Shown here: piece by piece, positions 11,821 through 40,452 of the stretch
Layout of the letters: the number at the start of each line of letters is the position of its first letter
Position numbering within the stretch: position 1 is the first letter of the stretch
Origin: Shigella phage SHSML-45
Reading direction: 5' to 3' (one strand)
Length of the DNA stretch: 64,000 bases
Sequence record: KX130863
Notes under the pieces: generated by a model
Databases searched by the model: none
Told to the model about the DNA's origin: nothing
Seen by the model: only the letters and a program-made list of their open reading frames with translations
Translations under genes and position numbers: made by a program

Positions 11821-11896
11821 TGGTAGTTAGTAGTGGATTTGAACCACTGTAGTCGCTCCGTATGAAGGAGGTGCATAACCACTCTGCCAACTAACT
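11821..11896 (-). tRNA. tRNA, anticodon CAT (Met, fMet or Ile2)
   Basis: Hand fold: acceptor AGTTAGT/ACTAACT, anticodon loop TTCATAC, T-arm GGTTCAAATCC, encoded CCA. Confidence 0.6.
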
Positions 11897-11992
11897 ATTA
11901 TGTTTTACTAGGCTAAGTAAGTATTCTTTATACTCTTTAGACCAACTAGCTTTTTTAAACTTTCCTGGACGCATAGCCTTAATTCCTAGATT

Positions 11993-12069
11993 TGGTACTC
12001 CGGGAGGGATTTAAACCCCCGATCTCTCGGTTATCAGCCGAGTGCTTTAGATCGCTAAGCTACCGAAGC
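11993..12069 (-). tRNA. tRNA-Ile (GAT)
   Basis: Acceptor GCTTCGG, anticodon arm CTCGG-CTGATAA-CCGAG, encoded CCA. Confidence 0.7.
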
Positions 12070-12084
12070 ATTAAAATATTTACA

Positions 12085-12375
12085 TCACACACTGTCTAAG
12101 TAAGAAGTATAGTGGAATTTAGTTTCTCCAGTATTATCTACTTCTACCTCAGTTCGTGGTACTTGACGAACCACACCATGAATCATCTTATATCGGATGC
12201 CTCTAGCTGGTTCATGATCTTTTGGAAATACTTGTTTAACCGTCACTACTTTATATTCTTCACGCGGTGTTAGCACTACTACTTGATCACCCTCTTTGAT
12301 TTTCCAAGAAGATGGAAATTCATAGGTGTATCTTTGACCACCGGTAAGGAATATAACAGAAAGATAACGTTTCAT
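12085..12375 (-). CDS. hypothetical protein (96 aa)
   Basis: ORF between tRNA genes with its own promoter-like motif upstream. Confidence 0.4.
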   Translation of the reverse strand: MKRYLSVIFLTGGQRYTYEFPSSWKIKEGDQVVVLTPREEYKVVTVKQVFPKDHEPARGIRYKMIHGVVRQVPRTEVEVDNTGETKFHYTSYLDSV

Positions 12376-12452
12376 TTGGTTTCCCTCTCATTAATTTATA
12401 TAAATATTATAGCAATAAATAAGAGAGAAAGCAAATGAGTTTTTCTTGAAAT

Positions 12453-12527
12453 TGGTAGCGGGTTCCAGTACTGCCCTGGACTTACTTAGCTTATGAGACT
12501 AAGAAGAACTCTATGCCTCCCACCCGC
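12453..12527 (-). tRNA. tRNA-like, anticodon CAT, non-canonical T-loop
   Basis: Anticodon arm TTAGT-CTCATAA-GCTAA folds, but the T-loop (GGCAGTA) and acceptor pairing are imperfect. Confidence 0.35.
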
Positions 12528-12535
12528 AATTGTTT

Positions 12536-12660
12536 GGTCATTCTAGGCAGGACTCGAACCTGCTATCACTTGTGCGGACTTACGAGAACCATTCTTTCAC
12601 TCGAATCGAACGAGCTTCTGCCCTCGCCAAGTTGGTTTCCCCATCAACCACGCTAGAATG
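12536..12660 (-). ncRNA. tRNA-like or structured RNA region (two T-arm-like motifs)
   Basis: GCAGG-TTCGAGT-CCTGC and GCTCG-TTCGATT-CGAGT T-arm-like hairpins in an ORF-free stretch; I could not fold a complete cloverleaf by hand. Confidence 0.3.
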
Positions 12661-12781
12661 TTAGATTGTTTTCAGTGCAAGAGTCCGAGTCTTGGACACG
12701 ACCGCTTCGCAAGTACATAGGCAGCTTATCATGAGTCAGCACTTCCGAATTGCTAGCTCCGTGTTCTGCACTGAAATTCTG

Positions 12782-13129
12782 TTAGTTTAATCGTAAAGTA
12801 TTATCTACTTCACCATTAATTGTTCGGCATTCCTCTGGGATTGCCGGGGTGGCCTTGTATTCCCACCACTCAGCACCATCATATTCCCCACGTTCTAGCC
12901 AAGTTCCATCGGCAAACCATACATTACCATAAAGTAATTGTCCACCGTATCCAGAATCATATTCAAAGTCTAGGTTATTAAGAAAATCCTCAATGTATTC
13001 TTCTGTATAACCTAAAGGTAATACCCAAACTTTTTTATCCCCATAATACCCGAATTCTATTTTAATACACTTAACTTTAGAATTGGTATTTTTTAAGGCG
13101 AGTAACAGCTCTTCTTTAGCATTACGCAT
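12782..13129 (-). CDS. hypothetical protein (115 aa)
   Basis: ORF, W/Y-rich. Confidence 0.4.
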   Translation of the reverse strand: MRNAKEELLLALKNTNSKVKCIKIEFGYYGDKKVWVLPLGYTEEYIEDFLNNLDFEYDSGYGGQLLYGNVWFADGTWLERGEYDGAEWWEYKATPAIPEECRTINGEVDNTLRLN

Positions 13130-13153
13130 AGTATATTCTCATACTGAATTATT

Positions 13154-13231
13154 TTGGCGCGACCGATGGGATTTGAACCCACATTCCCTCCCGTGACAGG
13201 GGAGTACCATTACCAAGCCAGCCCCGGTCGC
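13154..13231 (-). tRNA. tRNA-Asp (GTC)
   Basis: Acceptor GCGACCG, anticodon arm CTCCC-CTGTCAC-GGGAG, T-arm GGTTCAAATCC, encoded CCA. Confidence 0.7.
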
Positions 13232-13240
13232 ATAATTTAT

Positions 13241-13426
13241 TTACTCAGCTTTGAGTTTTTCAATAGCTGCATTAAGTTCTTTAAGAAACTCTTTTCGTAC
13301 ATTAAGACGATTGAGACTTACTAGTATATCATGTTTAAGTTCTTCGATGTATTTCTTCTCAACTTCAATATTGTTGATAGTGCTATCACGATGAACTTCT
13401 AGCTGCGCAATCACATTCTTGGACAT
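13241..13426 (-). CDS. small coiled-coil protein (61 aa)
   Basis: ORF. Confidence 0.3.
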   Translation of the reverse strand: MSKNVIAQLEVHRDSTINNIEVEKKYIEELKHDILVSLNRLNVRKEFLKELNAAIEKLKAE

Positions 13427-13453
13427 GCTTGTTTCCTCAGTTATTAATGAAAA

Positions 13454-13526
13454 TGGTATCTGTGGCTGAATTCGATGTCAGCAATGATAGCTGGTTGGCT
13501 ACCGGTTTACTTAACTCTACACAGAA
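13454..13526 (-). tRNA. tRNA-like (anticodon unresolved)
   Basis: Canonical 3' half (GCTGA-CATCGAA-TCAGC T-arm, acceptor, CCA) but the anticodon arm folds with a 6-nt loop. Confidence 0.35.
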
Positions 13527-13528
13527 TT

Positions 13529-13611
13529 TGGCGGGCCGTGTAGGATTCGAACCTACGTTGTCTTTCGACACGGATTAACAATCCGCCGCCAAACCGCTTG
13601 GCTAACGACCC
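13529..13611 (-). tRNA. tRNA with anticodon GTT (Asn) and an extended variable arm
   Basis: Acceptor GGGTCGT/ACGGCCC, anticodon arm GCGGA-TTGTTAA-TCCGT, 13-nt variable region, T-arm GTAGG-TTCGAAT-CCTAC, CCA. Confidence 0.5.
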
Positions 13612-13763
13612 TAAATTTATATTGCTGACTAGGATTTTCACCTAGACGGAGTTAGCACCGTAGCGTGTAGCGGCATACCTCTCCAAACCGTGCCTCATCT
13701 TTCAATTACGGAGACAGTGTTCCTACGCGTGCCTGAATTGATTTAACAATTCTTTCAGCAAAT

Positions 13764-13839
13764 TGGACGACCGCATGAGATTTGAACTCACATAAAAAGG
13801 ATTTGCAATCCTTCGCCTAAGCCATTCAGCCAACGGTCG
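13764..13839 (-). tRNA. tRNA-Cys (GCA)
   Basis: Anticodon arm AAGGA-TTGCAAA-TCCTT, T-arm GGTTCAAATC, CCA. Confidence 0.7.
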
Positions 13840-14017
13840 ATCTATCTTGTTTTTCGAGATCTTCAAATTCTAGATCATTGAAGTTCCCTAGAGTACGGGT
13901 GTAGAACCTATCTCCTGAGTCATAGCCTGATTTACCACAATCATACATTTTAAATTCACGAAGAGGTGTGAAAATGTGTTCAGAACCACAACACTTAAAT
14001 CTAACTAATCGTTTCAT
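13826..14017 (-). CDS. small protein (63 aa)
   Basis: ORF; its 3' end overlaps the tRNA-Cys call, so one of the two is misplaced. Confidence 0.25.
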   Translation of the reverse strand: MKRLVRFKCCGSEHIFTPLREFKMYDCGKSGYDSGDRFYTRTLGNFNDLEFEDLEKQDRSTVG

Positions 14018-14066
14018 TAGCTTCTCCAGTTCAATTTATGTAATTATTATATAGAACTTTTGGAAA

Positions 14067-14345
14067 CTAAGCGACTACATTTTTTAAGAATTTGATGCCT
14101 TTCTTTTTCTTCTTATATTTCCACGTTAATGGATTTTGTCGATTATGAGCGCTTGAGATCTTTGTCTCGTCAAAGTTCTTCAATATCATGTAATCACAGG
14201 ATAATTGTTCTAGTGGAATGTGATCACCGTCAAAAGCGTATACATAAGGCTGTTGACTAGCACGATAATGATAGACTTTGTTAATTCTACGTTTCAGCGA
14301 CTTATCCGCGCAGTAAATAAAGAAGTTTTCAGGATGCATCAGCAT
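14067..14345 (-). CDS. hypothetical protein (92 aa)
   Basis: ORF. Confidence 0.4.
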   Translation of the reverse strand: MLMHPENFFIYCADKSLKRRINKVYHYRASQQPYVYAFDGDHIPLEQLSCDYMILKNFDETKISSAHNRQNPLTWKYKKKKKGIKFLKNVVA

Positions 14346-14356
14346 CTACTTCAATT

Positions 14357-14440
14357 TGGTGCATCGTGATGGATTTGAACCACCAACCCCGAAGGGCACG
14401 GATTTACAGACCGCTGCAATAGACATTCTGCCAACGATGC
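14357..14440 (-). tRNA. tRNA-Tyr (GTA), class II
   Basis: Anticodon loop CTGTAAA identical to E. coli tRNA-Tyr, long variable arm GCCCTTCGGGG, T-arm GGTGG-TTCAAAT-CCATC, CCA. Confidence 0.65.
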
Positions 14441-14568
14441 ACATTTAAAAGTATTCAAATACTAGTTTAAACACTTTTAAATATGTTTCCAAATTAGATA
14501 ACTATTATACCAAGTTTTAAGGCACTGAGCAAGTCAAATTTCGAAGAACTTGCTCAGTGCTGTATTAG

Positions 14569-14844
14569 TTAGTCGAACTTAGGAGTGACAGTTAAGGAGA
14601 ACGGAAGTTCAAAAACTTCTTCCCCCTCATTACTAACTGTAACTACACGACCTTTAAGTTCAGACATTAAAATATCAATATCAGCTTTTGCATCTGGAGC
14701 CATGCCAGCTTCAACACATTTAGCTTTAACTTCCGGAAGGAGTTCTACATCGTAGAAATAAAGCCATTCAATCTCACCTTCCCAGCCTTCCCAGGATTTA
14801 CAGATTGCACTTTCAATACCAGTTGCTATAACACGATTTTGCAT
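14569..14844 (-). CDS. hypothetical protein (91 aa)
   Basis: ORF. Confidence 0.4.
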   Translation of the reverse strand: MQNRVIATGIESAICKSWEGWEGEIEWLYFYDVELLPEVKAKCVEAGMAPDAKADIDILMSELKGRVVTVSNEGEEVFELPFSLTVTPKFD

Positions 14845-14934
14845 TCGTTAACTCCTTCATCAATTTATATAACTATTATATCAGAAATTTAAAGTAAAAG
14901 GCAAGTACATTTTTAAAAATTCTATTCGGAGGAG

Positions 14935-15141
14935 CTAAACTCCAGATTCTTCGGCCAAGTCTAGACTAATAAGAGTTATAGCCATAATTGCCGCACCATG
15001 TTCTTTTTCCCCGGTGTTTTTAGCAGAGTCTATAATATCCTTAATCTGTTCGTAATAACTTTTTACTTCTTGTTCAATACCTGCCTCGGCTATCATGCCT
15101 TTAGTCATGATTCGTTGCATAGTAATTTCACGGTTAGCCAT
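14935..15141 (-). CDS. hypothetical protein (68 aa)
   Basis: ORF; a possible unlisted 39-codon ORF (15133-15249) overlaps its start in an ATGGCTAA arrangement. Confidence 0.35.
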   Translation of the reverse strand: MANREITMQRIMTKGMIAEAGIEQEVKSYYEQIKDIIDSAKNTGEKEHGAAIMAITLISLDLAEESGV

Positions 15142-15316
15142 GATGTTTCTCCAGCTTCATTTTTAATAGTTTACAAATGAAGTCAACGTCTTCATCTGTG
15201 CCTAGATCTCTATCTTCAAGAGTTGCCTTGAAGTTTTTCGTTAGTTCCATAAGAACTACTTCTCTAGAACGACGTGTTGGCGGGGGTGGATGTCTATACA
15301 TCTTATTTCCTTAATT

Positions 15317-15391
15317 TGGTGGGTCGGAGGAGAATCTAACTCCTACTCGTTAGCTTATGAGGCCACCGCTTTAACTTTAAGCTACCGACCC
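15317..15391 (-). tRNA. tRNA, anticodon CAT (Met-type)
   Basis: Acceptor GGGTCGG/CCGACCC, anticodon loop CTCATAA, encoded CCA; T-loop is non-canonical (TTAGATT). Confidence 0.5.
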
Positions 15392-15397
15392 TATGTT

Positions 15398-15486
15398 TGG
15401 CGGAAGAAGGGGGAATCGAACCCACAAGGCTATATTTCAAACCGACAGATTAGCAATCTGCTGCAATACCGTTATGCTATTCTTCC
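15398..15486 (-). tRNA. tRNA-Ser (GCT), class II
   Basis: Acceptor GGAAGAA, anticodon arm GCAGA-TTGCTAA-TCTGT, long variable arm, T-arm TGGG-TTCGATT-CCCC, CCA. Confidence 0.7.
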
Positions 15487-15507
15487 GAATTTATAAGATA
15501 TATTATA

Positions 15508-16026
15508 TTAGAAATTTAGCTTCATGGCAAGAAAATTTTTCAAGTTTTCGGTAGACATCTCATCCACATCTATAGGAGAAACAAACCCATTTAATTGTCT
15601 AGCAAACTTTTCGCCAGCAGGATCATTATCCCCAACAGCTACCAATTTAAAAGGTAGTAATTTCAATTGCTTTAATAGCGGTTTTCCTGGAGAAGAACCC
15701 AACATTGCTAGAGCAGGATACCCAGCATTATGTAATGCTACAGCCTTAAATACAGATTCAGCAATTAATACTACTTTTTCATCCCCATTGAGAGTTTCTA
15801 GTCCCCATACACACTGTGTAGTAGAATAAGTAAAATATCTAGCTTCAAAGGGGCACTTACCATGACCTTTTGGAGCAGAAGGATTATAAGTCTGATAGCC
15901 TCTCAACATTCCAGAGAAGTCATACAATGGGACTGTTAGCCATCCTTCTGGGCTTAACCAGCAGTGATATTTATCTGTATCAAACCCTCTAGATAAGAGA
16001 TGTTCTGTTAGTTCATCAATAGTCAT
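15508..16026 (-). CDS. hypothetical protein with Toprim-like DxD segment
   Basis: KLVAVGDNDPAGEKFA resembles a Toprim acidic motif; start moved to the Met with GAGAGGAA SD (MTIDELTEHL). Confidence 0.4.
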   Translation of the reverse strand: MTIDELTEHLLSRGFDTDKYHCWLSPEGWLTVPLYDFSGMLRGYQTYNPSAPKGHGKCPFEARYFTYSTTQCVWGLETLNGDEKVVLIAESVFKAVALHNAGYPALAMLGSSPGKPLLKQLKLLPFKLVAVGDNDPAGEKFARQLNGFVSPIDVDEMSTENLKNFLAMKLNF

Positions 16027-16246
16027 ACTAGATTCCTCTCTCAAATTTATAAATATATTATGCAGAGAATTTAGCATTCAAGCAATTGAATTTTTTAACT
16101 TTTTAGAGGAAAATCACAGGATGCTTAAGGGTAGCAGGTAAGTGGGTAGACCCCAAAATTGTTATCCCCACTTGATTTTCAATGTGATATAGTGTAAAGT
16201 ATTTGTCATAGCTGAGTGACCAAAGAGACACACTTATCCTCTACCT

Positions 16247-16287
16247 TAAAACAGAAAAGCCCTGCGCTCTCCAGGGAACACAGGGCT
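16247..16287 (-). terminator. rho-independent terminator
   Basis: gccctg...cagggc stem followed on the minus transcript by UUUUCUGUUUU. Confidence 0.45.
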
Positions 16288-16311
16288 TACTTCGAATATT
16301 ACGTGTGGGAA

Positions 16312-17259
16312 TTACTTGTTACGCATATCCATAATCATCTGGCCATCGTAACCAGTGCCAACTACTGTTTGAGGTACACCGCCTTGATATTTCTGAGCAC
16401 GAATCATTTCAACTTCTAGTTGTTTCCAGCGAATCATCTCAGGAGTAATAGTACGTTGCAGAGCGGCGTTAGCTTCGGCTTCCTTCTTAGCTGCGTACAG
16501 TTTAGCATCTGCATCACGTTCGTTTGCAATAGCTTGGTTGTTACGAGCTTCACGATCTGCTTCTGCTTGTTTAACCTTCTGCTGTGCTTCTTGTTCAACA
16601 CGAGCCAACTCAGCTTTCGCAGCATTAACTTGTTCCTCACGAACTTTGGTATTCTGTACCTGTTCCACGATTACAGGCGGCAAAGTAATATCCTGAAGGA
16701 ACACTTGCTTAACTGTGTAACCATAAGGGCGTGCATACTCTTCAACTTCCTGTTGAATTGCGGTTTGTAATTGAGCCTGGATTTTAGCATCAAACAAATC
16801 TTGTGCTTTAGGAACAGACTTACCGAACTCACGAATAGTGGACAGTAATTTTTCAGTTACATATTTGTCTAATGCTTGATCCTGGGTACCTGCGTTAATA
16901 CGGTTAATCGGTGCCTTAGAACCATCAAACTGCAACATAACAGTCAGGTCAACAGTGGATTTAAACTTATCCTGACTAGGAACCTGAAGTTTATCTAATT
17001 TTACAGCAATGTCTTTTGTACTAAAAGTATCGAAAGATGCAAATGGGTTTACAAGATGAAAACCAGGTAATACAGGATTAGGGTCTACTTTACCCAGAAA
17101 TGTTTGGGTTTTAACCGTACCATCAGAAACAATAGTATATGAATTAAAAGCTAGGATTAAACCTGCTAAACCAACTACAGCACCAATACCCCAACGTTTA
17201 ATAGTGCGAATTACTTTTTGCTCAGAAGTCAGTTCTTTCATATTTTTAGTATTAAACAT
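16312..17259 (-). CDS. SPFH/band-7 (prohibitin/HflC-like) membrane protein
   Basis: N-terminal TM (GIGAVVGLAGLILAF), SPFH-like core, then an Ala/Glu/Gln-rich coiled coil (EQVNAAKAELARVEQEAQQKVKQAEADREARNNQAIA) as in HflK/HflC. Confidence 0.65.
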   Translation of the reverse strand: MFNTKNMKELTSEQKVIRTIKRWGIGAVVGLAGLILAFNSYTIVSDGTVKTQTFLGKVDPNPVLPGFHLVNPFASFDTFSTKDIAVKLDKLQVPSQDKFKSTVDLTVMLQFDGSKAPINRINAGTQDQALDKYVTEKLLSTIREFGKSVPKAQDLFDAKIQAQLQTAIQQEVEEYARPYGYTVKQVFLQDITLPPVIVEQVQNTKVREEQVNAAKAELARVEQEAQQKVKQAEADREARNNQAIANERDADAKLYAAKKEAEANAALQRTITPEMIRWKQLEVEMIRAQKYQGGVPQTVVGTGYDGQMIMDMRNK

Positions 17260-17270
17260 ATATTTCCTTA

Positions 17271-17471
17271 TTATTTAGAAGAGTTAGCTACTACAGTTAC
17301 TTTAGTTGCAGAAATAAACAGGCTAGCATCCACAGCAAATTCAGGAGCTTTGATATCTCCATTATGAAATATGACTATACCGGAGACTACTTCAAATGCT
17401 AGTGCTGTAACATCGGTGGTATTTACTTGTGAATGTTCACCTACTACTTTTACTATATATCGTGTTTTCAC
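17271..17471 (-). CDS. small protein (66 aa)
   Basis: ORF directly upstream of the SPFH gene. Confidence 0.35.
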   Translation of the reverse strand: MKTRYIVKVVGEHSQVNTTDVTALAFEVVSGIVIFHNGDIKAPEFAVDASLFISATKVTVVANSSK

Positions 17472-17497
17472 TTTATTTTCCTAGCAGTTAATAAAAT

Positions 17498-17572
17498 TGG
17501 CCGAGGTGACAGGATTCGAACCTGCATAAAGGAATTTAGAAGACTCCTGCCTCTCCCTTAGACTACACCCCG
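17498..17572 (-). tRNA. tRNA-Arg (TCT)
   Basis: Acceptor CGGGGTG/CACCTCG, anticodon arm GGAGT-CTTCTAA-ATTCC, T-arm GGTTCGAATCC, CCA. Confidence 0.7.
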
Positions 17573-18074
17573 TTTAAGTATTTTTAAGAACTCTCGTAAA
17601 AACTCTTAAAAATACAGACGATACCGGGAGAGTCATAAGTCTCACTCATTAAGTATTTCAAGACAAAATACAGTAACGTCTATTATTTTCCAGTTTAAGT
17701 CAAGGTGACTTAGTGGTTATGTCCTGCGGTATACTGAGGACTCGGTTAGGTTAGGGTCATGACTCCCCACCTTTTGCTGCTACTCAACAGGAGTTATCGC
17801 GAATTACCTGTGCTATTGTGCACCATTAGTGACATCTCTCATGTCAGCATTTCCCACTTTGTGGATAGCTTGAAAAACTACTCCGATATGGAGAAAGAAC
17901 TTCACTATCCTAGAATACCTTCTAAAGTTCTTCTTTAGCCTGGACATAGTTAAATCGTAATAAAACTATTCAGCAGACTGGTTGGTTAGTCTGGAACCAA
18001 CTACCGCGTGGTTTAGGCAGTGCGCAACTAACCTCGGAAGCTTTTACGTTAAAAGCACCAGTTATCCAGTTCTT

Positions 18075-18146
18075 ACCGACCGTAGGATTCGAACCTACAT
18101 CTTCCACCAGTTACGGCTTGATAATACCGTTTATACTAGATCGGCA
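18075..18146 (-). tRNA. tRNA-like (anticodon unresolved; CCA not encoded)
   Basis: Perfect T-arm GTAGG-TTCGAAT-CCTAC and acceptor GCCGATC/GGTCGGT (two G-U pairs); anticodon arm did not fold by hand. Confidence 0.4.
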
Positions 18147-31662: not shown

Positions 31663-31867
31663 TCCTATAGTGTACTTCGCTTCTAACAGAGGATCAACAA
31701 AGAGATCTTGTTTATCAACTTACAAATATATTATAACAAGGTTTACAGCAAAAAGCAAGTATAATTTTAAATAAACCTATGATATTGCTTTTAAGTAAAA
31801 AATTTACTTGCTTATAAAGGTAGAAATATGATACTAGATAATCATTTATTTATATGCGAAATATTAC

Positions 31868-31896
31868 AGTATTAGATGGCGAAAGAAAATTTTAAT
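31868..31896 (+). promoter_or_regulatory. sigma70 consensus promoter (TTGACA-17-TATAAT)
   Basis: ttgaca 31868-31873, 17-bp spacer, tataat 31891-31896; first plus-strand promoter after the strand switch. Confidence 0.6.
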
Positions 31897-31952
31897 TGAC
31901 ATAGTGGATAATGTTTAGTATAATAGGTGTAAAAATTCTGTGGAGAAGTGGA

Positions 31953-36414: not shown

Positions 36415-36553
36415 TTTTTATTAGCTGAAATTTGTAATCCGGGCTATTAGTGCTCGGATTATTACATAATCTTTCCAGTCGATTGACAGTCAAAATAAAA
36501 TGTCGTTGACAATTTGGATGGATTATGTAATAATATATGTATTGGAGGTGAGG

Positions 36554-37006
36554 ATGTCATTCACACAGCAAGAACTTTTAGATAACTTCCGATATGAAGA
36601 TGGTAAGTTATTTAGAACTACAGGAAGAAATGCAGGGAAAGAATGTTGTGTTTCTACGGGTAACGGATATTATCGTATATCTCTAGGGAATAGGACTATG
36701 CTTCGGCATAGAGCAATATTTTTAATGCATCATGGATACTTACCTGATTTAGTAGATCATGTGAATACTATAAAAGGTGATGATCGTATTGAAAATCTTA
36801 GAGAGCAGACAGTGTCCGGTAATCTAAGAAATATCAAATATAAGAAAGGAATGCATGTTTACCCTTCTGGTAGTAAGAACTGGCAAGTAGTATTTACTAT
36901 TAACCGTAAACGTATAGTTAAAGGAACATATGACAACTATGAGGTTGCATGTTCTATGGCCAAGATGTTTAGAGGTCAATTATACGGTAGGGAATCAATC
37001 CAGTAA
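36554..37006 (+). CDS. HNH homing endonuclease
   Basis: RHRAIFLMHHGYLPDLVDHVNTIKGDDRIENLRE; start set at the Met after GGAGGTGAGG SD. Confidence 0.7.
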   Translation: MSFTQQELLDNFRYEDGKLFRTTGRNAGKECCVSTGNGYYRISLGNRTMLRHRAIFLMHHGYLPDLVDHVNTIKGDDRIENLREQTVSGNLRNIKYKKGMHVYPSGSKNWQVVFTINRKRIVKGTYDNYEVACSMAKMFRGQLYGRESIQ

Positions 37007-37015
37007 AATTTCATT

Positions 37016-37044
37016 TGCAAGGGAGTATTATTTTATAGTATAAT
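37016..37044 (+). promoter_or_regulatory. promoter copy 1 (TTGCAA-17-TATAAT) of a tandem pair
   Basis: ttgcaa 37016-37021, tataat 37039-37044, followed by 39-bp repeat copy 1. Confidence 0.5.
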
Positions 37045-37055
37045 ATTCCCATAAA

Positions 37056-37094
37056 TGAGAGACATTAGTAAAAATTGATTTTGCTAATTTTTCT
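37056..37094 (+). repeat. 39-bp direct repeat, copy 1
   Basis: tgagagacattagtaaaaattgattttgctaatttttct, identical to 37179-37217. Confidence 0.8.
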
Positions 37095-37136
37095 CTATGT
37101 TCAAAGACACTGGTAGCAGCCCCGGGAAAAATTTAC

Positions 37137-37165
37137 TTGCATGATGCCCAAAATCTTGATATAAT
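37137..37165 (+). promoter_or_regulatory. promoter copy 2 (TTGCAT-17-TATAAT)
   Basis: ttgcat 37137-37142, tataat 37160-37165, followed by repeat copy 2. Confidence 0.45.
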
Positions 37166-37178
37166 ATTTATATTGAAT

Positions 37179-37217
37179 TGAGAGACATTAGTAAAAATTG
37201 ATTTTGCTAATTTTTCT
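37179..37217 (+). repeat. 39-bp direct repeat, copy 2
   Basis: Identical to 37056-37094; period 123 bp. Confidence 0.8.
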
Positions 37218-37662
37218 TGTTTACAATCCGCGATACGGAACAGTTAGGCTGCCCCATTAAGGGTTGTTTTAACTATTACTAGTGTTTATATTGCATTAGT
37301 TAATCTTCAATTAAGTGATCTGTGTACCCTGAATTCGGAAAGGTAAATCCAAACCGTGCATGTTTAGCTCGTTATATAGGCAGAGCTTTATATGGGGGTG
37401 CGAACGAAAAGAGCAGCGAATGGCGGCACGTACAGTAGTCACCTACCAATAGGATAGTGAGGACAAATAGAATCGGCTTAGCGGCCAATGACCTAGGTTC
37501 TATTCTGTATAAGAGCGAAGAGAGCACAGCACTGAGATATGATAACTTATTCATATTGTTTGATGATAATTGATGTTTACGTAAATAGTAGTAATAGTTG
37601 TTCTATTCTTTCTGAATAGTCCTAAAGAAAACTTATTTCATTTCCAACACAGGAGTATTGTT

Positions 37663-40452
37663 GTGTTTTCAATCCTACAAGGTCATGCAGGATTTCATCG
37701 CGATTTAGCCACAGGCAATTGGCGAGAAATCAAAGCGGAAGATTATACCTTTGCCAAGCGATTCTCGAAAGAGCATCCAGAAGGTAAACCAGCTTCTATG
37801 CCCTTCAAATTTGATGTAATAGAAGAGCACGACCCACAAAGCCTGGCCGAAATGTTACCCCTTATGAGACGTTTAACGTCTGACCCTCATATCGTTGCGG
37901 TACGAGGTCGATGTCTTGCACCTAAAAATAATGTGCGGCGTAAGAAAGGTAACTTTAATGTATCTAATCCTAGTAATATTATTGCTATGGACGTGGATGG
38001 TATCCTAGATACCGGTGGGTACGACAAATTTAATCTTGTTGGTATGGCCCGCCACATTATTAAGATGTTGAATAGTATTAGTGAGGATATGTTTCCTCTT
38101 AATGCAGGCTTTATAGCTCATGCATCGTCTTCGGCTGGGCTAAAACCAGGTATCCGAATGCACTTAATGCTAGAATCTAACGTCAAGGTAACTCAGGGTC
38201 AGCTAAAGTTCTTATTTACATCTATCAACGATAGTAGTAAGCAAAAATTTGGTTTTGATATTGCCGACCTAGCTTATTATTCATCTGTCCAGCTCCACTA
38301 TTTTGCCGACCCCTTATTTAGCGATGGTATTGTTGATCCGTTTAAAGCGGAGAGTAAGCCACGTCTGGTGTATGTTAAAGGTTCGAAAGTAAATTTGCCC
38401 AATAATCTGGTTGACTATGAAACAACTAGAGGGGAGTTTAAGGAAGAGTTTTATTCTTTACTTGATCAAATTAAAGGCAAAAAGATTGCTTCTGATAAAG
38501 TAGAAGAAACCATCAGCGAGTTAGAAGAAGCTGATGATGGAGTGTATTTGCGTATTATCCCCAAACTATACCATAGGGCATTAGAGGATGGTGTTGATTT
38601 TGCATGGCTAGAACGTGAGATTAAACCAGCTTTATCTGAATATATTGCAACTAAAGATAACAGTCGTAACATTCAAGATTACTTTAATAACGGTCGTAAG
38701 CAGGCTCTCAAAGCGTTTGTTAATAATTCTAAACGTGAGATTCCATTAAATCTGAAAGGTGTTCCACTTAAGAAATTAGAAGTGGATTCTCCACCAGAAG
38801 TTCCATACCTGAAGATTAACATTGTGCCACCAAAAGGCCATATAACATTTGTTAAGGCAAGTCTTGGTACTGGTAAAACTACGGCAGTAACTAAATGGCT
38901 GGACGCAGGTGTTCTTCCGGGCAACTTTTTAGCAGTTACAAATACTAGAGCACTGGTATCTTCAAATGCCAAGAAATTTAGTGCAGGACAATACGATAAG
39001 TCTGTAGATATGCTCAACTTTAAACGTGGAGCTATTGATCGTATGTCCACAACTATTCACTCTTTGCATAAGTTCAAAAGTTTTATTGGTCAAATAGACA
39101 CCATTTTTATTGACGAATGTGACGCTGTAATGAATGATCTATTATTCGCCCCTGTTGTTAAACAACGCCGCGAGTGTATTCAAGTTCTACGTGACATCCT
39201 CATGACAGCTAAGACTGTAATTTTATCCGATGGTGATATTAGTGCTGAGACGATTGAAGCATATGGTTCTCTAATTGATTTTGATAAACCAGTAGCATTT
39301 TATAATCATCACCGTAAAATGCTGTCAAAAGCTCATGCTTATGAATTCCCTGACGAATCCAGTATTTGGGTTGCACTTCAGACTTCTCTAGAGATGGGTG
39401 AGAAATCTATTCTAGTATCTGATTGTGGCCCAGATGAGCTGAATGAGAAAGGTATGGCATTACGTCGTAATACTGGTGCGTTAGTTAAAGAAATCCATTC
39501 AAACTCCACTTCAGATGTGGATATTCGACGTATTCTGGATTACACGACTAATGAGCTAATTGATCAACAAATTGATTGCTTATTATGTAGTCCATCCGTA
39601 ACGAGTGGTGTTGACTTCAATTACTTTGATAACGTATTTGTTATTACTAGAACTAGTAATCAAGCGCCAAACATGCGTTTTCAAGCAATCAGGCGCGACC
39701 GTGGTGCTCAGAATATCTATTATTTTATTGATAAATCCACTAGTGGGTTCTCCGCAGGTTCTGAACAATATAATATTGATGAAGGTTGGCTGGAGTTAGC
39801 ACAGCAATTATATGCACGTCGTAGGGAATTAGAATCTAGGAACTATACTAGTACCTTACGTTATTACTTGCTTGATCAGGGTGCAACTATTGATATTTTC
39901 AGTGAAAGCTGGGGAACTATTGAAGGTGCTGGTAAAGAGTACACAGAAGAGCGAATAAAAGCTATTCTGCACTCAACTCCTGATTATTGTGCTCCACGTC
40001 ATGCGGATGCGTATGAAGCTAAACTACTTCTTGTTCGCTATTATCATCTTGAGTCTATTAAAGATGTAACAGTTGAGCATGTTGAACAATATATCAAAGA
40101 TAAACCGAATGATCGAGCTGCATTCTTCCATAAGATGCACGAGATGTTCTGGGAAGATATTAAGAAGTGTTCAAACGTCACTATCAAACCATTCATAGAA
40201 GCTCTGAAAGGTAAGAAGAAAGATTTCTTCCTTAAAACAGGTCAGAGTGCTAATCCAAAATATGCTAGAATGTATCTTGGTATGATGGGTATTGGTAAGG
40301 ATATGAACACTGAAAATATCGTAGACTGGTATAGAACCTACTGCAAAATCGAATGTATGCCGATTCCTTATAAGTTTATGACTGATGAGGAGAAACATAT
40401 GCATGATGAAGCAATGTCAGAGCTAGGTGCTAGAAATGACAGTGAAGAATAA
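37663..40452 (+). CDS. large P-loop NTPase, helicase-like (candidate replication initiator/origin-binding protein)
   Basis: 929 aa; Walker A SLGTGKTTAVTKW, Walker B IFIDECDAVMND; GTG start with AGGAG SD; preceded by a ~640-bp untranslated leader. Confidence 0.55.
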   Translation: MFSILQGHAGFHRDLATGNWREIKAEDYTFAKRFSKEHPEGKPASMPFKFDVIEEHDPQSLAEMLPLMRRLTSDPHIVAVRGRCLAPKNNVRRKKGNFNVSNPSNIIAMDVDGILDTGGYDKFNLVGMARHIIKMLNSISEDMFPLNAGFIAHASSSAGLKPGIRMHLMLESNVKVTQGQLKFLFTSINDSSKQKFGFDIADLAYYSSVQLHYFADPLFSDGIVDPFKAESKPRLVYVKGSKVNLPNNLVDYETTRGEFKEEFYSLLDQIKGKKIASDKVEETISELEEADDGVYLRIIPKLYHRALEDGVDFAWLEREIKPALSEYIATKDNSRNIQDYFNNGRKQALKAFVNNSKREIPLNLKGVPLKKLEVDSPPEVPYLKINIVPPKGHITFVKASLGTGKTTAVTKWLDAGVLPGNFLAVTNTRALVSSNAKKFSAGQYDKSVDMLNFKRGAIDRMSTTIHSLHKFKSFIGQIDTIFIDECDAVMNDLLFAPVVKQRRECIQVLRDILMTAKTVILSDGDISAETIEAYGSLIDFDKPVAFYNHHRKMLSKAHAYEFPDESSIWVALQTSLEMGEKSILVSDCGPDELNEKGMALRRNTGALVKEIHSNSTSDVDIRRILDYTTNELIDQQIDCLLCSPSVTSGVDFNYFDNVFVITRTSNQAPNMRFQAIRRDRGAQNIYYFIDKSTSGFSAGSEQYNIDEGWLELAQQLYARRRELESRNYTSTLRYYLLDQGATIDIFSESWGTIEGAGKEYTEERIKAILHSTPDYCAPRHADAYEAKLLLVRYYHLESIKDVTVEHVEQYIKDKPNDRAAFFHKMHEMFWEDIKKCSNVTIKPFIEALKGKKKDFFLKTGQSANPKYARMYLGMMGIGKDMNTENIVDWYRTYCKIECMPIPYKFMTDEEKHMHDEAMSELGARNDSEE

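What the first reader, a model, noticed from the sequence alone, without database searches (positions are those of the whole stretch)
37016..37662. 640-bp leader with tandem promoter-repeat units and a GC-rich structured core upstream of the large helicase-like gene
Two promoter-like units each drive an identical 39-bp sequence (37056-37094 and 37179-37217; copy 1 encodes a 7-codon mini-ORF MRDISKN). They are followed by ~400 bp without ORFs containing a GC-rich, inverted-repeat-bearing segment around 37400-37520 and a palindromic ccccggg at 37120-37130. Its position directly upstream of a candidate origin-binding helicase makes it a candidate replication origin or cis-regulatory RNA.
Basis: partly seen in the sequence, partly recalled or inferred. 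Interest (0 to 1): 0.6.

Follow-up and report, generated by a model that had tools for sequence, protein, structure and literature searches.

The report
Structured leader RNA before T5 helicase
The long gap in front of this T5-like phage's big replication helicase gene encodes a conserved, intricately folded RNA leader of about 490 bases that matches no catalogued RNA family, while the "tandem promoter repeat" in it is only a scar left by an inserted homing-endonuclease gene.

Summary
The window is a T5-like phage, 99.9% identical to Salmonella phage Shivani.

Region 37007-37662 lies between an HNH homing-endonuclease gene and the T5 "D2" bipolar helicase, which is annotated "replication origin binding protein".

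The tandem promoter plus 42-nt repeat occurs in one piece in only 3 of 522 related records. It is a junction scar of the HNH cassette, not a conserved design.

The conserved part is a plus-strand leader RNA running from a typical T5 early promoter (start about 37172) to the GTG at 37663. It has four elements:
- a 5' hairpin;
- a covarying hairpin at 37232-37258;
- a roughly 330-nt multi-helix domain (37270-37600) closed by a long interrupted stem;
- a terminal hairpin next to the ribosome-binding site.

Base-pairing is kept through many compensatory changes:
- within T5-type sequences, 12 pairs against 5.5 expected;
- across five other, much more divergent lineages, 35 of 50 pairs against 15.8 expected.

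No open reading frame is conserved, and no Rfam family matches. Among T5-like phages the element was found only directly upstream of this helicase gene.

The replication-origin reading has no support. The function is inferred: most likely control in cis of helicase expression. An RNA partner of the helicase is not excluded.

The parts
36554..37006 (+). HNH homing-endonuclease gene with its own promoter-like site at 36506-36534. It is an insertion relative to phage T5.
   Evidence: Pfam HNH_3, E = 2.9e-11. Annotated CDS in Shivani and AKFV33. Absent from T5, DT57C and others, where a terminator directly follows the T5.107 homologue.
37015..37044 (+). Cassette-borne promoter P' (TTGCAA, 18 nt, TATAAT).
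   Evidence: Promoter scan. Annotated as a T5-consensus promoter in AKFV33. In AKFV33 it is the only promoter in front of the leader.
37053..37094 (+). Repeat copy 1: a duplicate of the first 42 nt of the leader (5' hairpin plus U-run) carried by the HNH cassette. It contains the mini-ORF at 37056-37079.
   Evidence: The junction to native sequence lies at the TTTTCT microhomology at 37089-37094.
37095..37136 (+). Remnant of the native intergenic sequence downstream of the T5.107 terminator. It includes the non-conserved CCCCGGG at 37120-37126.
   Evidence: Aligns to T5 and DT57C sequence upstream of the native promoter; the palindrome varies between phages.
37137..37172 (+). Native T5-type early promoter: -35 TTGCAT at 37137-37142, -10 TATAAT at 37160-37165, inferred start near 37172.
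   Evidence: Sequence. The signature TATAATA-N11-TTGAGAGA has 26 matches against 5.6 expected. T5 annotates a promoter at the homologous place. The start site is inferred by analogy with promoter PN25 from my own knowledge and was not measured.
37176..37218 (+). Repeat copy 2: the true 5' end of the leader. It is an A/U-rich hairpin (37180-37218) followed by UUUUUCUU.
   Evidence: Invariant in all type A and type B phages. Predicted in every fold. Covaries in L043 (GUAAAA/UUUUGC becomes GACAA/UUGUC). Shivani annotates it as a terminator, but the terminator scan does not call it, and the Klebsiella-phage version has no U-run.
37232..37258 (+). Conserved hairpin GAUACGGAACAGUUAGGCUGCCCCAU, the most sequence-conserved element across lineages.
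   Evidence: Single copy in the window. Helix 1 of the cross-lineage alignment has 9 pairs, 97.5% paired, 4 of them with compensatory changes.
37270..37600 (+). Core structured domain of about 330 nt. The closing stem P1 is 37270-37289 with 37581-37600, continued by 37293-37310 with 37560-37576 and 37314-37330 with 37519-37533. Inside is a multi-helix junction.
   Evidence: MFE -97.3 kcal/mol, z = -2.95 on the plus strand against -71.0, z = -1.08 on the minus strand. In alignment A5, which spans 37215-37642 and so also includes the flanking hairpins, 136 pairs are 99.6% paired, with 12 compensatory pairs against 5.5 in shuffles and 0-1 in slid controls.
37466..37504 (+). Signature sub-motif H2: outer stem 37466-37474 with 37496-37504, inner hairpin GGCU-UAGC-GGCC at 37475-37486, and a 9-nt 3' bulge. 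CUUAGCGG is the only stretch invariant in all lineages.
   Evidence: Outer-stem sequences differ completely between seven lineages yet always pair. All 8 pairs show compensatory changes. A covariance model finds one copy in the window, at 37462-37509 with 72 bits.
37603..37623 (+). Terminal hairpin CUAUUC-UUUCU-GAAUAG (37603-37619) followed by UCCU, a possible anti-Shine-Dalgarno sequence.
   Evidence: Nearly invariant in types A and B (the loop is 1 nt shorter, UUUU, in four Epseptimavirus-type rows), with positional analogues in the other lineages. It is the best or second-best predicted partner of the ribosome-binding region in all five type A and B representatives tested. The pairing itself is inferred.
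37651..37665 (+). Shine-Dalgarno AGGAG (37651-37655) and GTG start codon (37663-37665) of the helicase gene, lying inside a small CAACA/UGUUG hairpin.
   Evidence: Sequence. Shivani annotates a ribosome-binding site here.
37663..40452 (+). T5 "D2" bipolar SF2 helicase, annotated "replication origin binding protein". It is the gene the leader precedes.
   Evidence: The published D2 cloning primer matches the homologous T5 start (PMC3632103). Pfam Herpes_ori_bp matches only residues 389-533. PDB UL9 chains match only residues 389-532.

Best explanation
The region is the 5' leader of the early transcript that encodes the T5 D2 helicase. It is about 490 nt long, from about 37172 to 37662.

The leader is transcribed from a typical T5 early promoter and folds, as plus-strand RNA, into a conserved architecture of four elements:
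- a 5' hairpin;
- a small covarying hairpin at 37232-37258;
- a roughly 330-nt multi-helix domain (37270-37600) closed by a long, A/U-rich, interrupted duplex;
- a terminal hairpin just upstream of the ribosome-binding site.

I propose that it acts in cis on the helicase message. The long closing duplex is a likely entry site for a double-strand-specific RNase such as RNase III. The terminal hairpin and its UCCU tail can pair with the Shine-Dalgarno and spacer sequence. Folding or processing of the domain would then set how much helicase is translated.

The tandem promoter-repeat units are not part of this design. A free-standing HNH homing-endonuclease cassette, carrying its own promoter and a copy of the leader's first 42 nt, recombined into the native intergenic region at a TTTTCT microhomology. 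This left both promoters and both copies in Shivani-like phages.

Shown: the promoter signature, the plus-strand RNA structure and its conservation, the absence of a conserved ORF, the fixed position before the helicase gene, and the origin of the repeat.

Inferred: the transcription start site, RNase III processing, control of translation, and action in cis.
For: Identity and context:
- The window is 99.9% identical to Shivani. 522 phage records match by megablast and 526 by the more sensitive blastn.
- The downstream gene is the D2 helicase.

Promoter:
- It carries the T5 early-promoter signature. T5 annotates a promoter at the same place.

Structure within T5-type sequences:
- 136 pairs are 99.6% paired.
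- 12 pairs have changes on both sides, against 5.5 +/- 1.1 in shuffles (0 of 500 reach the observed value) and 0-1 in slid controls.

Structure across lineages, using type B, Klebsiella phages, My1, L043 and L064:
- 50 pairs are 90.8% paired.
- 35 pairs have compensatory changes, against 15.8 +/- 2.4 in shuffles (0 of 500) and 9-13 in slid controls.
- The covariation score is 0.552 against 0.10-0.15 in slid controls.

Strand:
- Single-sequence fold: plus strand -97.3 kcal/mol, z = -2.95; minus strand -71.0, z = -1.08.
- Consensus fold: -111.0 against -84.6 kcal/mol for alignment A5, and -23.3 against -14.7 for A8.
- One-sided changes are almost all G-U to A-U or G-C. In A5, 267 cells are G-U and only 3 are A-C.

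Selection:
- T5 and Epseptimavirus-type phages are 93% identical in the leader (99% in its 5' part) but only 85-87% identical in the first 1200 nt of the helicase gene.

Not coding:
- No ORF is conserved. A 1-nt indel in phage rutana shifts the frame.

Position:
- The element is single-copy in the window.
- Every real occurrence recovered lies directly upstream of the helicase gene.

Repeat origin:
- A three-way alignment of Shivani, AKFV33 and T5 shows it.
- Only 3 of 522 records cover the tandem arrangement in one piece.

Anti-Shine-Dalgarno lead:
Against: - No expression data were available. The transcription start, read-through past the 5' hairpin and U-run, processing and effect on translation are all untested.
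- A 330-nt multi-junction fold is far more elaborate than known translational operators or RNase III sites need. That favours some additional or different function.
- Two very different core alleles (type A and type B, 57% identical) sit between nearly identical flanks. A simple operator model does not predict this.
- Folding-energy z-scores of the leaders of Klebsiella, Providencia, Serratia and Vibrio relatives are not significant. Structure there rests on covariation only, or is unproven for Serratia and Vibrio phages.
- The covariance model built from types A and B scores the other lineages only weakly.
- The proposed anti-Shine-Dalgarno pairing is short and has no covariation support.
Confidence: 0.55

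Rival explanations
1. The folded domain is a functional RNA in its own right. It would be cut out of the leader, for example at the long closing duplex, and act in trans or as an RNA partner of the helicase encoded just downstream. Other large structured RNAs encoded directly upstream of a nucleic-acid enzyme serve as that enzyme's guide, template or scaffold (IscB omega-RNA, IS110 bridge RNA, retron and DRT RNAs; from my own knowledge).
For: - The size and complexity of the fold are typical of RNP scaffolds or ribozymes rather than operators: about 330 nt, several junctions, and invariant short motifs such as CUUAGCGG.
- The closing stem has 12 + 7 near-continuous base pairs, suitable for excision.
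- The RNA is more conserved than the adjacent coding sequence.
- It is strictly linked to the helicase gene in every lineage examined.
- The helicase has a 390-aa N-terminal region with no recognised domain.
- Type A and type B alleles suggest exchangeable functional modules.
Against: - No terminator follows the domain, so it is co-transcribed with the helicase gene.
- There is no evidence of a stable processed species.
- There is no evidence of co-variation between RNA allele and helicase sequence. Shivani combines a type A core with a helicase 98% identical to T5's, while type B phages simply belong to a more divergent lineage.
- No homology to any known functional RNA.
Confidence: 0.25
2. 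The region is a transcription-activated replication origin. A strong promoter would produce a structured pre-primer RNA that forms a persistent hybrid or is processed into a primer next to the initiator helicase gene, as with ColE1 RNA II, the T7 primary origin or T4 oriF.
For: - A strong early promoter drives a long non-coding structured transcript.
- A/T-rich flanks surround the G+C-richer core.
- The homologous site lies near the middle of the T5 genome, at 59.5 of 121.75 kb.
- The neighbouring helicase has been proposed as an initiator (PMC3632103).
- Multiple internal origins were reported for T5, and two are inferred for phage Bas33, but none is mapped to sequence.
Against: - There are no iterons. 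The only DNA repeat is the non-conserved cassette scar.
- The cumulative G-C skew minimum and the switch in transcription direction are at about 31.7 kb, not 37.3 kb. Skew is, however, confounded with transcription direction.
- The helicase's "origin-binding" label rests only on helicase motifs.
- Recombitron editing suggested predominantly unidirectional replication from one genome end in T5 (PMC10055335).
- Selection is on RNA pairing of one strand. This is compatible with a primer RNA but gives no evidence for one.
Confidence: 0.12
3. The region encodes one or more small proteins: the 60-aa minus-strand ORF at 37372-37554, the 38-aa plus-strand GTG ORFs, or the 7-codon leader peptide. On this reading the conservation is protein-coding.
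For: - These ORFs exist in the window.
- Both type A and type B have a 38-aa plus-strand ORF reading GLAA through the invariant GGCTTAGCGGCC.
Against: - The 60-aa ORF is confined to close T5 relatives. It is truncated in BSP22A, lost in rutana and absent in types B to G.
- A 1-nt insertion in rutana shifts the 38-aa ORF out of frame.
- Indels of 1-3 nt are common between alleles.
- Substitutions follow base-pairing, not codon positions.
- The mini-ORF has no ribosome-binding site and differs in length (5-8 codons) in other genera.
Confidence: 0.03
4. The inverted repeats act at the DNA level, as a cruciform or recombination hotspot, or are merely a by-product of mosaic recombination, with no RNA function.
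For: - Long inverted repeats are present.
- Recombination breakpoints fall inside or next to the closing stem in DT57C compared with DT571/2, and in Shivani.
- An HNH cassette and a roughly 100-nt insertion have landed nearby.
Against: - Strand asymmetry: G-U is tolerated and A-C is not, and the plus strand folds much better than the minus strand.
- Compensatory changes occur in short internal hairpins that would not extrude as cruciforms.
- The leader is more conserved than the neighbouring gene.
Confidence: 0.05

Closest known systems
Phage early-mRNA leaders with RNase III-sensitive duplexes (lambda N leader; T7 early processing sites R0.3 to R1.3). Cited from my own knowledge.
   Same: - Long 5' untranslated region of an early phage gene.
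- A long imperfect duplex just upstream of the ribosome-binding site.
- Plausible coupling of processing to translation or stability.
   Different: - Those sites are single hairpins of about 60-100 nt. Here the duplex closes a 250-nt multi-helix interior with invariant motifs.
- No cleavage data exist for this leader.
- There is no sequence similarity.
Autogenous translational operators of phage replication proteins (T4 gene 32 pseudoknot leader, T4/RB69 gene 43 operator). Cited from my own knowledge.
   Same: - A structured RNA directly upstream of a replication-protein gene.
- The ribosome-binding site is embedded in or next to structure.
   Different: - Those operators are 20-70 nt; this element is five to ten times larger.
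- Binding of the D2 helicase to its own leader is untested.
ColE1 RNA II, the T7 primary origin and T4 oriF/oriG (transcription-primed origins). Cited from my own knowledge.
   Same: - A strong promoter drives a non-coding, structured transcript in a replication-gene neighbourhood.
- In Shivani there are tandem promoters, as at the T7 origin.
   Different: - The tandem promoters are not conserved.
- No origin has been mapped here.
- The G-C skew switch lies elsewhere.
- No conserved G-rich hybrid-forming segment was identified.
Large structured bacterial and phage RNAs of unknown or recently found function (ROOL, GOLLD, OLE, raiA, HEARO/omega-RNA)
   Same: - Size class above 300 nt.
- Multi-junction fold supported by covariation.
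- Association with phage.
- Like HEARO, it lies directly 5' of a nucleic-acid enzyme gene.
   Different: - It matches none of their Rfam models, even at E <= 10 for the window or E <= 1 for other lineages.
- It is much narrower in distribution, limited to enterobacterial Demerecviridae.
- It is embedded in an mRNA leader rather than forming its own transcription unit.
Free-standing HNH homing-endonuclease cassettes of T5-like and T4-like phages
   Same: This concerns the repeat only.
- HNH_3 domain.
- Presence or absence varies among close relatives.
- The insertion lies in an intergenic region and carries its own promoter.
   Different: Here the cassette carries a copy of the target's promoter-proximal 42 nt, producing a tandem promoter-leader duplication in a few phages. 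The cleavage site of this endonuclease is unknown.

Membership tests
Any Rfam 15 RNA family (including RNase P, tmRNA, 6S, group I/II introns, riboswitches, T-box, HEARO, ROOL, GOLLD) | A covariance-model match at or near the family's gathering score. | tested here: not met
   Only tRNAs reach gathering score in the window, at 11.8-18.1 kb. In 36900-37800 the best hits have E = 0.6-9 and lie far below threshold. Six other lineages plus the Serratia phage Kamaji give nothing in the leader at E <= 1.
T5 early (sigma-70-dependent) promoter | TTGCTT-like -35 hexamer, 17-18 nt spacer, TATAATA, an A-rich upstream block, and the downstream TTGAGAGA box. | tested here: met
   37137-37185 reads TTGCAT, 17 nt, TATAATA, 11 nt, TTGAGAGA with 0 mismatches. 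The motif has 26 matches in the window against 5.6 expected. T5 and AKFV33 annotate promoters at the homologous sites. Promoter activity was not measured.
Intrinsic (rho-independent) terminator or attenuator, for the 5' hairpin 37180-37218 | A G+C-rich stem followed by a U-tract, conserved as such in relatives. | tested here: not met
   The core stem (UUAGUAAAA/UUUUGCUAA) has a single G-C pair. The terminator scan does not report it. The Klebsiella-phage counterpart has a stem but no U-run. Shivani's authors did annotate it as a terminator, so partial termination cannot be excluded.
Structured non-coding RNA (generic criteria) | Base pairs maintained by compensatory substitutions beyond controls, strand specificity, and no conserved ORF. 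| tested here: met
   (0 of 500 shuffles reach the observed values; slid controls are far lower). Strand asymmetry is shown. ORFs are not conserved.
RNase III processing site | About two helical turns of near-continuous double-stranded RNA. | tested here: inconclusive
   The predicted closing stem has 12 bp, a 1-nt interruption, then 7 bp, followed by further helices. Cleavage cannot be tested with these tools.
Replication origin (iteron type or skew-defined) | Conserved repeated initiator-binding sites, and/or an A/T-rich unwinding element at the strand-skew switch. | tested here: not met
   The only direct repeat is the non-conserved 42-nt cassette scar. The skew minimum is at about 31.5 kb.
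Mobile group I intron | The group I core, and presence or absence polymorphism with precise empty sites. | tested here: not met
   There is no Intron_gpI hit. Every T5-like relative recovered carries either a type A or a type B core, and none has an empty site. The element sits in an untranslated region.
Protein-coding gene | An ORF conserved in frame across relatives. | tested here: not met
   (frameshifting indel in rutana; ORFs absent in the other alleles).
Herpes UL9-type origin-binding protein (the neighbouring gene) | An SF2 helicase core plus a UL9-like sequence-specific origin-binding domain. | tested here: inconclusive
   Only the helicase-motif region (residues 389-533) matches Pfam PF02399 and the UL9 structures. 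No match covers a DNA-binding domain. The N-terminal 390 aa match nothing except the phage family phrog_3712.

The most novel reading that the evidence does not exclude
The roughly 330-nt domain could be a new class of large functional RNA specific to T5-like phages, and not merely a leader. It might be an RNA cofactor or loading platform for the D2 helicase encoded immediately downstream, or a processed pre-primer. That would make initiation of T5 replication RNA-dependent. The exchangeable type A and type B cores would then be specificity modules. It would join the recent series of structured RNAs encoded directly upstream of the nucleic-acid enzyme they serve.
Probability: 0.2. Interest if true: 0.8.

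Novelty: new member of a known kind. Interest (0 to 1): 0.55.

Why it matters
T5 is a classic model phage, but how its replication starts and how its early replication genes are controlled remain poorly defined.

A conserved, covariation-supported RNA fold of this size, sitting directly in front of the proposed initiator helicase and absent from Rfam, is a concrete and testable handle on both questions.

If it only tunes helicase translation, it adds an unusually elaborate example to phage post-transcriptional control. It should then be annotated, so that genome annotators stop calling spurious small genes there, as several records already do.

If it is an excised RNA or a helicase cofactor, it would be a new functional RNA class in a well-studied phage family.

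The analysis also corrects a tempting misreading. The tandem promoters are a homing-endonuclease scar, not an origin-like design.

Tried and rejected
- Rfam at gathering score and at permissive E-values, on the window and on six other lineages plus the Serratia phage Kamaji: nothing relevant.

- A covariance model of the H2 motif built from types A and B. It found the single window copy but scored other lineages only at E = 0.5-6, and found nothing in Serratia or Vibrio phage leaders. It was too sequence-specific to extend the family.

- A degenerate DNA pattern (GAACRGTYNGGCYG, 205-235 nt, YTTAGCGG).
  - In viral contigs: 30 T5-like genomes plus 2 chance hits that lie in sequence that looks protein-coding.
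  - In 596 Gb of bacterial genomes: 74 hits in unrelated taxa. By my own rough information-content estimate this is about the number expected by chance, so there is no bacterial homologue.

- blastn against E. coli genomes: no match.

- Folding-energy z-scores for leaders of distant relatives were not significant. I therefore do not claim structure in the Vibrio or Serratia phages. The first attempt at this timed out.

- The idea that the conserved GGAACAG motif is a single-stranded "anti-start-codon" element was dropped. The motif forms its own covarying hairpin.

- A possible tertiary contact between the H2 loop (UUAGCG) and an upstream UGCUAA. The upstream sequence is present in lineages A, B, D and E but absent in C, F and G, so it is not general.

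- Resemblance to RNase P conserved regions and to group I intron R/S elements, recalled from memory, was not backed by any model hit.

- Structure prediction for the helicase N-terminal domain was abandoned. The protein search returned only two partial homologues, and the tool does not accept sequences from fetched loci.

- Literature searches found no description of this RNA, no T5 transcript map and no sequence-level origin map. The T5-family anti-retron factor Rad is a protein encoded in the tRNA region and is unrelated.
Full report
**What the window is.** A 901-nt query around the finding is 99.9% identical to Salmonella phage Shivani (Tequintavirus) and matches 522 phage records. In Shivani, region 37007-37662 lies between an HNH homing-endonuclease gene and a 929-aa gene annotated "replication origin binding protein".
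- The published cloning primer for the T5 "D2" bipolar helicase (GTGTTTTCTATCCTCCAAGG) matches the start of the T5 homologue. The downstream gene is therefore that biochemically characterised SF2 helicase (PMC3632103).
- Its "origin-binding" name rests only on residues 389-533, which match Pfam Herpes_ori_bp and the helicase-motif part of solved UL9 structures.
- The N-terminal 390 aa match nothing outside the phage family itself.

**Checking the observation.**
- The direct repeat is 42 nt with one mismatch (37053-37094 and 37176-37217); 38 nt are exact. None is expected by chance.
- A promoter-like site precedes each copy. The first is TTGCAA-18-TATAAT at 37015-37044.
- The second is TTGCAT-17-TATAAT at 37137-37165. 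The generic scan missed it, but it carries the full T5 early-promoter signature TATAATA-N11-TTGAGAGA. That signature occurs 26 times in the window against 5.6 expected, on the minus strand up to about 27 kb and on the plus strand from about 34 kb.
- G+C rises to 0.475-0.50 at 37320-37500, between flanks of about 0.30.
- Long-range inverted repeats bracket this core.
- CCCCGGG at 37120-37126 is real, but it varies among relatives and lies upstream of the promoter.

**The tandem units are an insertion scar.** I aligned Shivani, AKFV33 and T5.
- T5 has the T5.107 terminator, one promoter and then the leader.
- In AKFV33 that terminator-promoter segment is replaced by a cassette. The cassette consists of a different terminator-like hairpin, a promoter, the HNH gene, a second promoter P', and then the leader directly.
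- Shivani has the same cassette including the first 42 nt of the leader. At a shared TTTTCT it then continues into the remaining native intergenic sequence, the native promoter and the full leader.
- Only three of the 522 records cover the tandem arrangement in one piece.
- The "two promoters each driving an identical 39-bp sequence" is thus a recombination junction of a homing-endonuclease cassette (HNH_3 domain), not a conserved regulatory design.
- The 7-codon mini-ORF has no ribosome-binding site, and its counterparts in other genera differ in length.

**What is conserved: a folded plus-strand RNA.** Aligning nine T5-like phages showed nearly invariant flanks around a core that exists in two very different alleles.
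- Type A is found in T5, Shivani and Epseptimavirus. Type B is found in DT57C, IME178 and EASG3.
- T5 compared with a type B phage is 100% identical in the 5' flank, 57% in the core and 89% in the 3' flank.
- Every sequence folds into the same outline: a 5' hairpin, a long interrupted stem closing about 330 nt, and a small terminal hairpin.

Within type A (18 sequences, 14 distinct), the consensus fold gives these results:
- 136 pairs are 99.6% paired.
- 12 pairs changed on both sides, against 5.5 +/- 1.1 in column shuffles (0 of 500 reach the observed value) and 0-1 when partners are slid by 1-3 columns.

Within type B, five pairs show compensatory changes.

Using the helicase as an anchor, I fetched upstream regions from viral and metagenomic contigs. 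Homologous leaders turned up in Klebsiella Sugarlandvirus phages, Pectobacterium phage My1, two further enterobacterial lineages (L043, L064) and Providencia phages.
- All share short motifs at matching positions: GAUCU, CUUAGCGG, GAGAAGUG and GUUGCCAYCCC.
- An alignment of nine sequences from five of these lineages gave 50 consensus pairs, 90.8% paired. Of these, 35 have compensatory changes, against 15.8 +/- 2.4 in shuffles (0 of 500) and 9-13 in slid controls. The covariation score is 0.552 against 0.10-0.15.
- Helices supported in this way include the hairpin formed by the most conserved motif (window 37232-37258), the closing stem, an internal CCCGU/ACGGG helix, a junction carrying two hairpins, and a hairpin near the 3' side.
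- The clearest signature is sub-motif H2 (37466-37504). Its outer stem is entirely different in sequence in each of seven lineages yet always complementary. It encloses the invariant hairpin with CUUAGCGG and a 5-10-nt 3' bulge.

**Strand, coding potential and selection.**
- The plus strand folds to -97.3 kcal/mol (z = -2.95, 0 of 100 shuffles as good). The minus strand folds to -71.0 (z = -1.08).
- Consensus folding also favours the plus strand: -111.0 against -84.6 kcal/mol, and -23.3 against -14.7.
- One-sided substitutions at paired positions are almost all G-U to A-U or G-C. A-C combinations are nearly absent. This is expected for RNA of this strand and not for DNA or for the opposite strand.
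- No ORF is conserved. The 60-aa minus-strand ORF is confined to close T5 relatives, is truncated or lost in Epseptimavirus-type phages, and is absent in the other alleles. A 1-nt insertion in rutana also shifts the 38-aa plus-strand ORF out of frame.
- Between T5 and Epseptimavirus-type phages the leader is 93% identical, while the first 1200 nt of the helicase gene are 85-87% identical. The non-coding leader is therefore under stronger constraint than its essential neighbour.

**Is it known, and where else does it occur?**
- Rfam 15 gives only the tRNA cluster for the window. It gives nothing meaningful for the region even at E <= 10, and nothing in the leaders of six other lineages or of Serratia phage Kamaji.
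- The element is single-copy in the window.
- A degenerate two-anchor pattern found it in 30 T5-like genomes in IMG/VR. Two further hits lie in sequence that looks protein-coding and are chance matches.
- The 74 hits in 596 Gb of bacterial genomes are scattered over unrelated taxa. By my own rough estimate this is about the number expected by chance.
- E. coli genomes have no match.
- Literature searches found no description of this RNA, no T5 transcript map and no sequence-level origin map.
- More distant relatives (Serratia phage Kamaji, Vibrio phages) also have long intergenic regions before the helicase gene. I could show neither homology nor significant folding energy, so I make no claim for them.

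**How it most likely works.**
- Shown: a T5-type early promoter, a conserved plus-strand fold, no terminator between the fold and the helicase gene, and a fixed position directly 5' of that gene in every lineage.
- Inferred: the RNA acts in cis on the helicase message.
- Two features suggest how. First, the closing stem is 12 bp, a one-base interruption and 7 bp, followed by further helices. That is long enough to be an RNase III substrate, as in the lambda N leader or the T7 early processing sites (from my own knowledge).
- Second, the nearly invariant terminal hairpin and its UCCU tail (37603-37623) are the best or second-best predicted partner of the Shine-Dalgarno and spacer region in all five type A and B representatives tested. 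Analogous pyrimidine-rich hairpins occur in the Klebsiella and L043 lineages.
- I give this cis-regulatory reading 0.55.
- Its main weakness is that a 330-nt multi-junction fold with exchangeable alleles is far more than such control needs.
- The main rival (0.25) is that the domain is excised and functions as an RNA in its own right, possibly together with the helicase encoded downstream.

**The origin reading (0.12).** It has nothing specific in its favour beyond the location.
- No conserved DNA repeats are present.
- The cumulative G-C skew minimum and the divergent-transcription switch lie at about 31.7 kb.
- Published data on T5 origins are either unmapped at sequence level or point to replication from one end.

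**Verdict.**
- This is a real, conserved, structured leader RNA that is not in Rfam and, as far as I could find, not described. I rate it a new member of a known kind.
- The tandem promoter repeat is a homing-endonuclease scar, and the origin idea is unsupported.
- Interest is moderate to good (0.55), because the element sits in a model phage, directly in front of its proposed replication initiator, and is readily testable.

Noticed in passing
window 11821-18146, minus strand: A cluster of 10 tRNA genes (Met x2, Ile, Asp, Asn, Cys, Tyr, Ser x2, Arg). This is the usual T5-family tRNA region. The tRNA-Ser with anticodon ACT at 18073-18146 scores lowest (36.8 bits).
   Followed up: no
window 31663-31910: A divergent intergenic region of about 250 bp, where transcription switches from the minus to the plus strand. 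It coincides with the minimum of cumulative G-C skew for the whole window (sign change at about 31.5 kb). If skew marks an origin in this phage, it points here rather than to the helicase leader.
   Followed up: partly
L006 (DT57C) about 527-626 and L003 (DT571/2) about 2124-2223: An insertion of about 100 nt sits between the leader's 5' hairpin and the conserved hairpin, flanked by a TTTTTCTT direct repeat. It occurs with both type A (DT571/2) and type B (DT57C) cores. Hit lengths suggest it is also present in several other phages. It is predicted to fold on its own, and it has no Rfam match.
   Followed up: partly
window 37200-37205 / 37479-37484, and the homologous positions in L006, L012, L043: The invariant H2 loop UUAGCG is complementary to a conserved UGCUAA 250-270 nt upstream in lineages A, B, D and E (about 370 nt upstream in DT57C, which carries the 100-nt insertion). 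No such partner exists in the Klebsiella, L064 or Providencia lineages. This may be a lineage-limited tertiary contact or a coincidence.
   Followed up: partly
window 37663-38832 (helicase residues 1-390): The N-terminal 390 aa of the D2 helicase have no Pfam or PDB match. A search of the large protein collection returned only two partial homologues. The domain's function is unknown, and the "origin-binding" annotation has no support from this part of the protein.
   Followed up: partly
L014 (Vibrio phage Achelous) about 1005-1022 and 1305-1322: The long region upstream of the helicase gene in this distant relative carries two similar 18-nt boxes exactly 300 nt apart (AGTGATCTCTGTGGGAGT and GATGATCTCTGAGGGAGT). 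They overlap two small annotated ORFs. Their meaning is unknown.
   Followed up: no
several phage records, e.g. MT233524.1, MK947459.1, MZ571828.1 (L011 1039-1161, 1350-1442): Public annotations place small "hypothetical protein" genes inside the leader RNA. These ORFs are not conserved and are probably annotation artefacts.
   Followed up: partly
window 36428-36460: The HNH cassette brings its own terminator-like hairpin (AATCCGGGCTATTAGTGCTCGGATT). It replaces the T5.107 terminator seen in T5 (ACCGAGTCATTTTGGCTCGGT).
   Followed up: no
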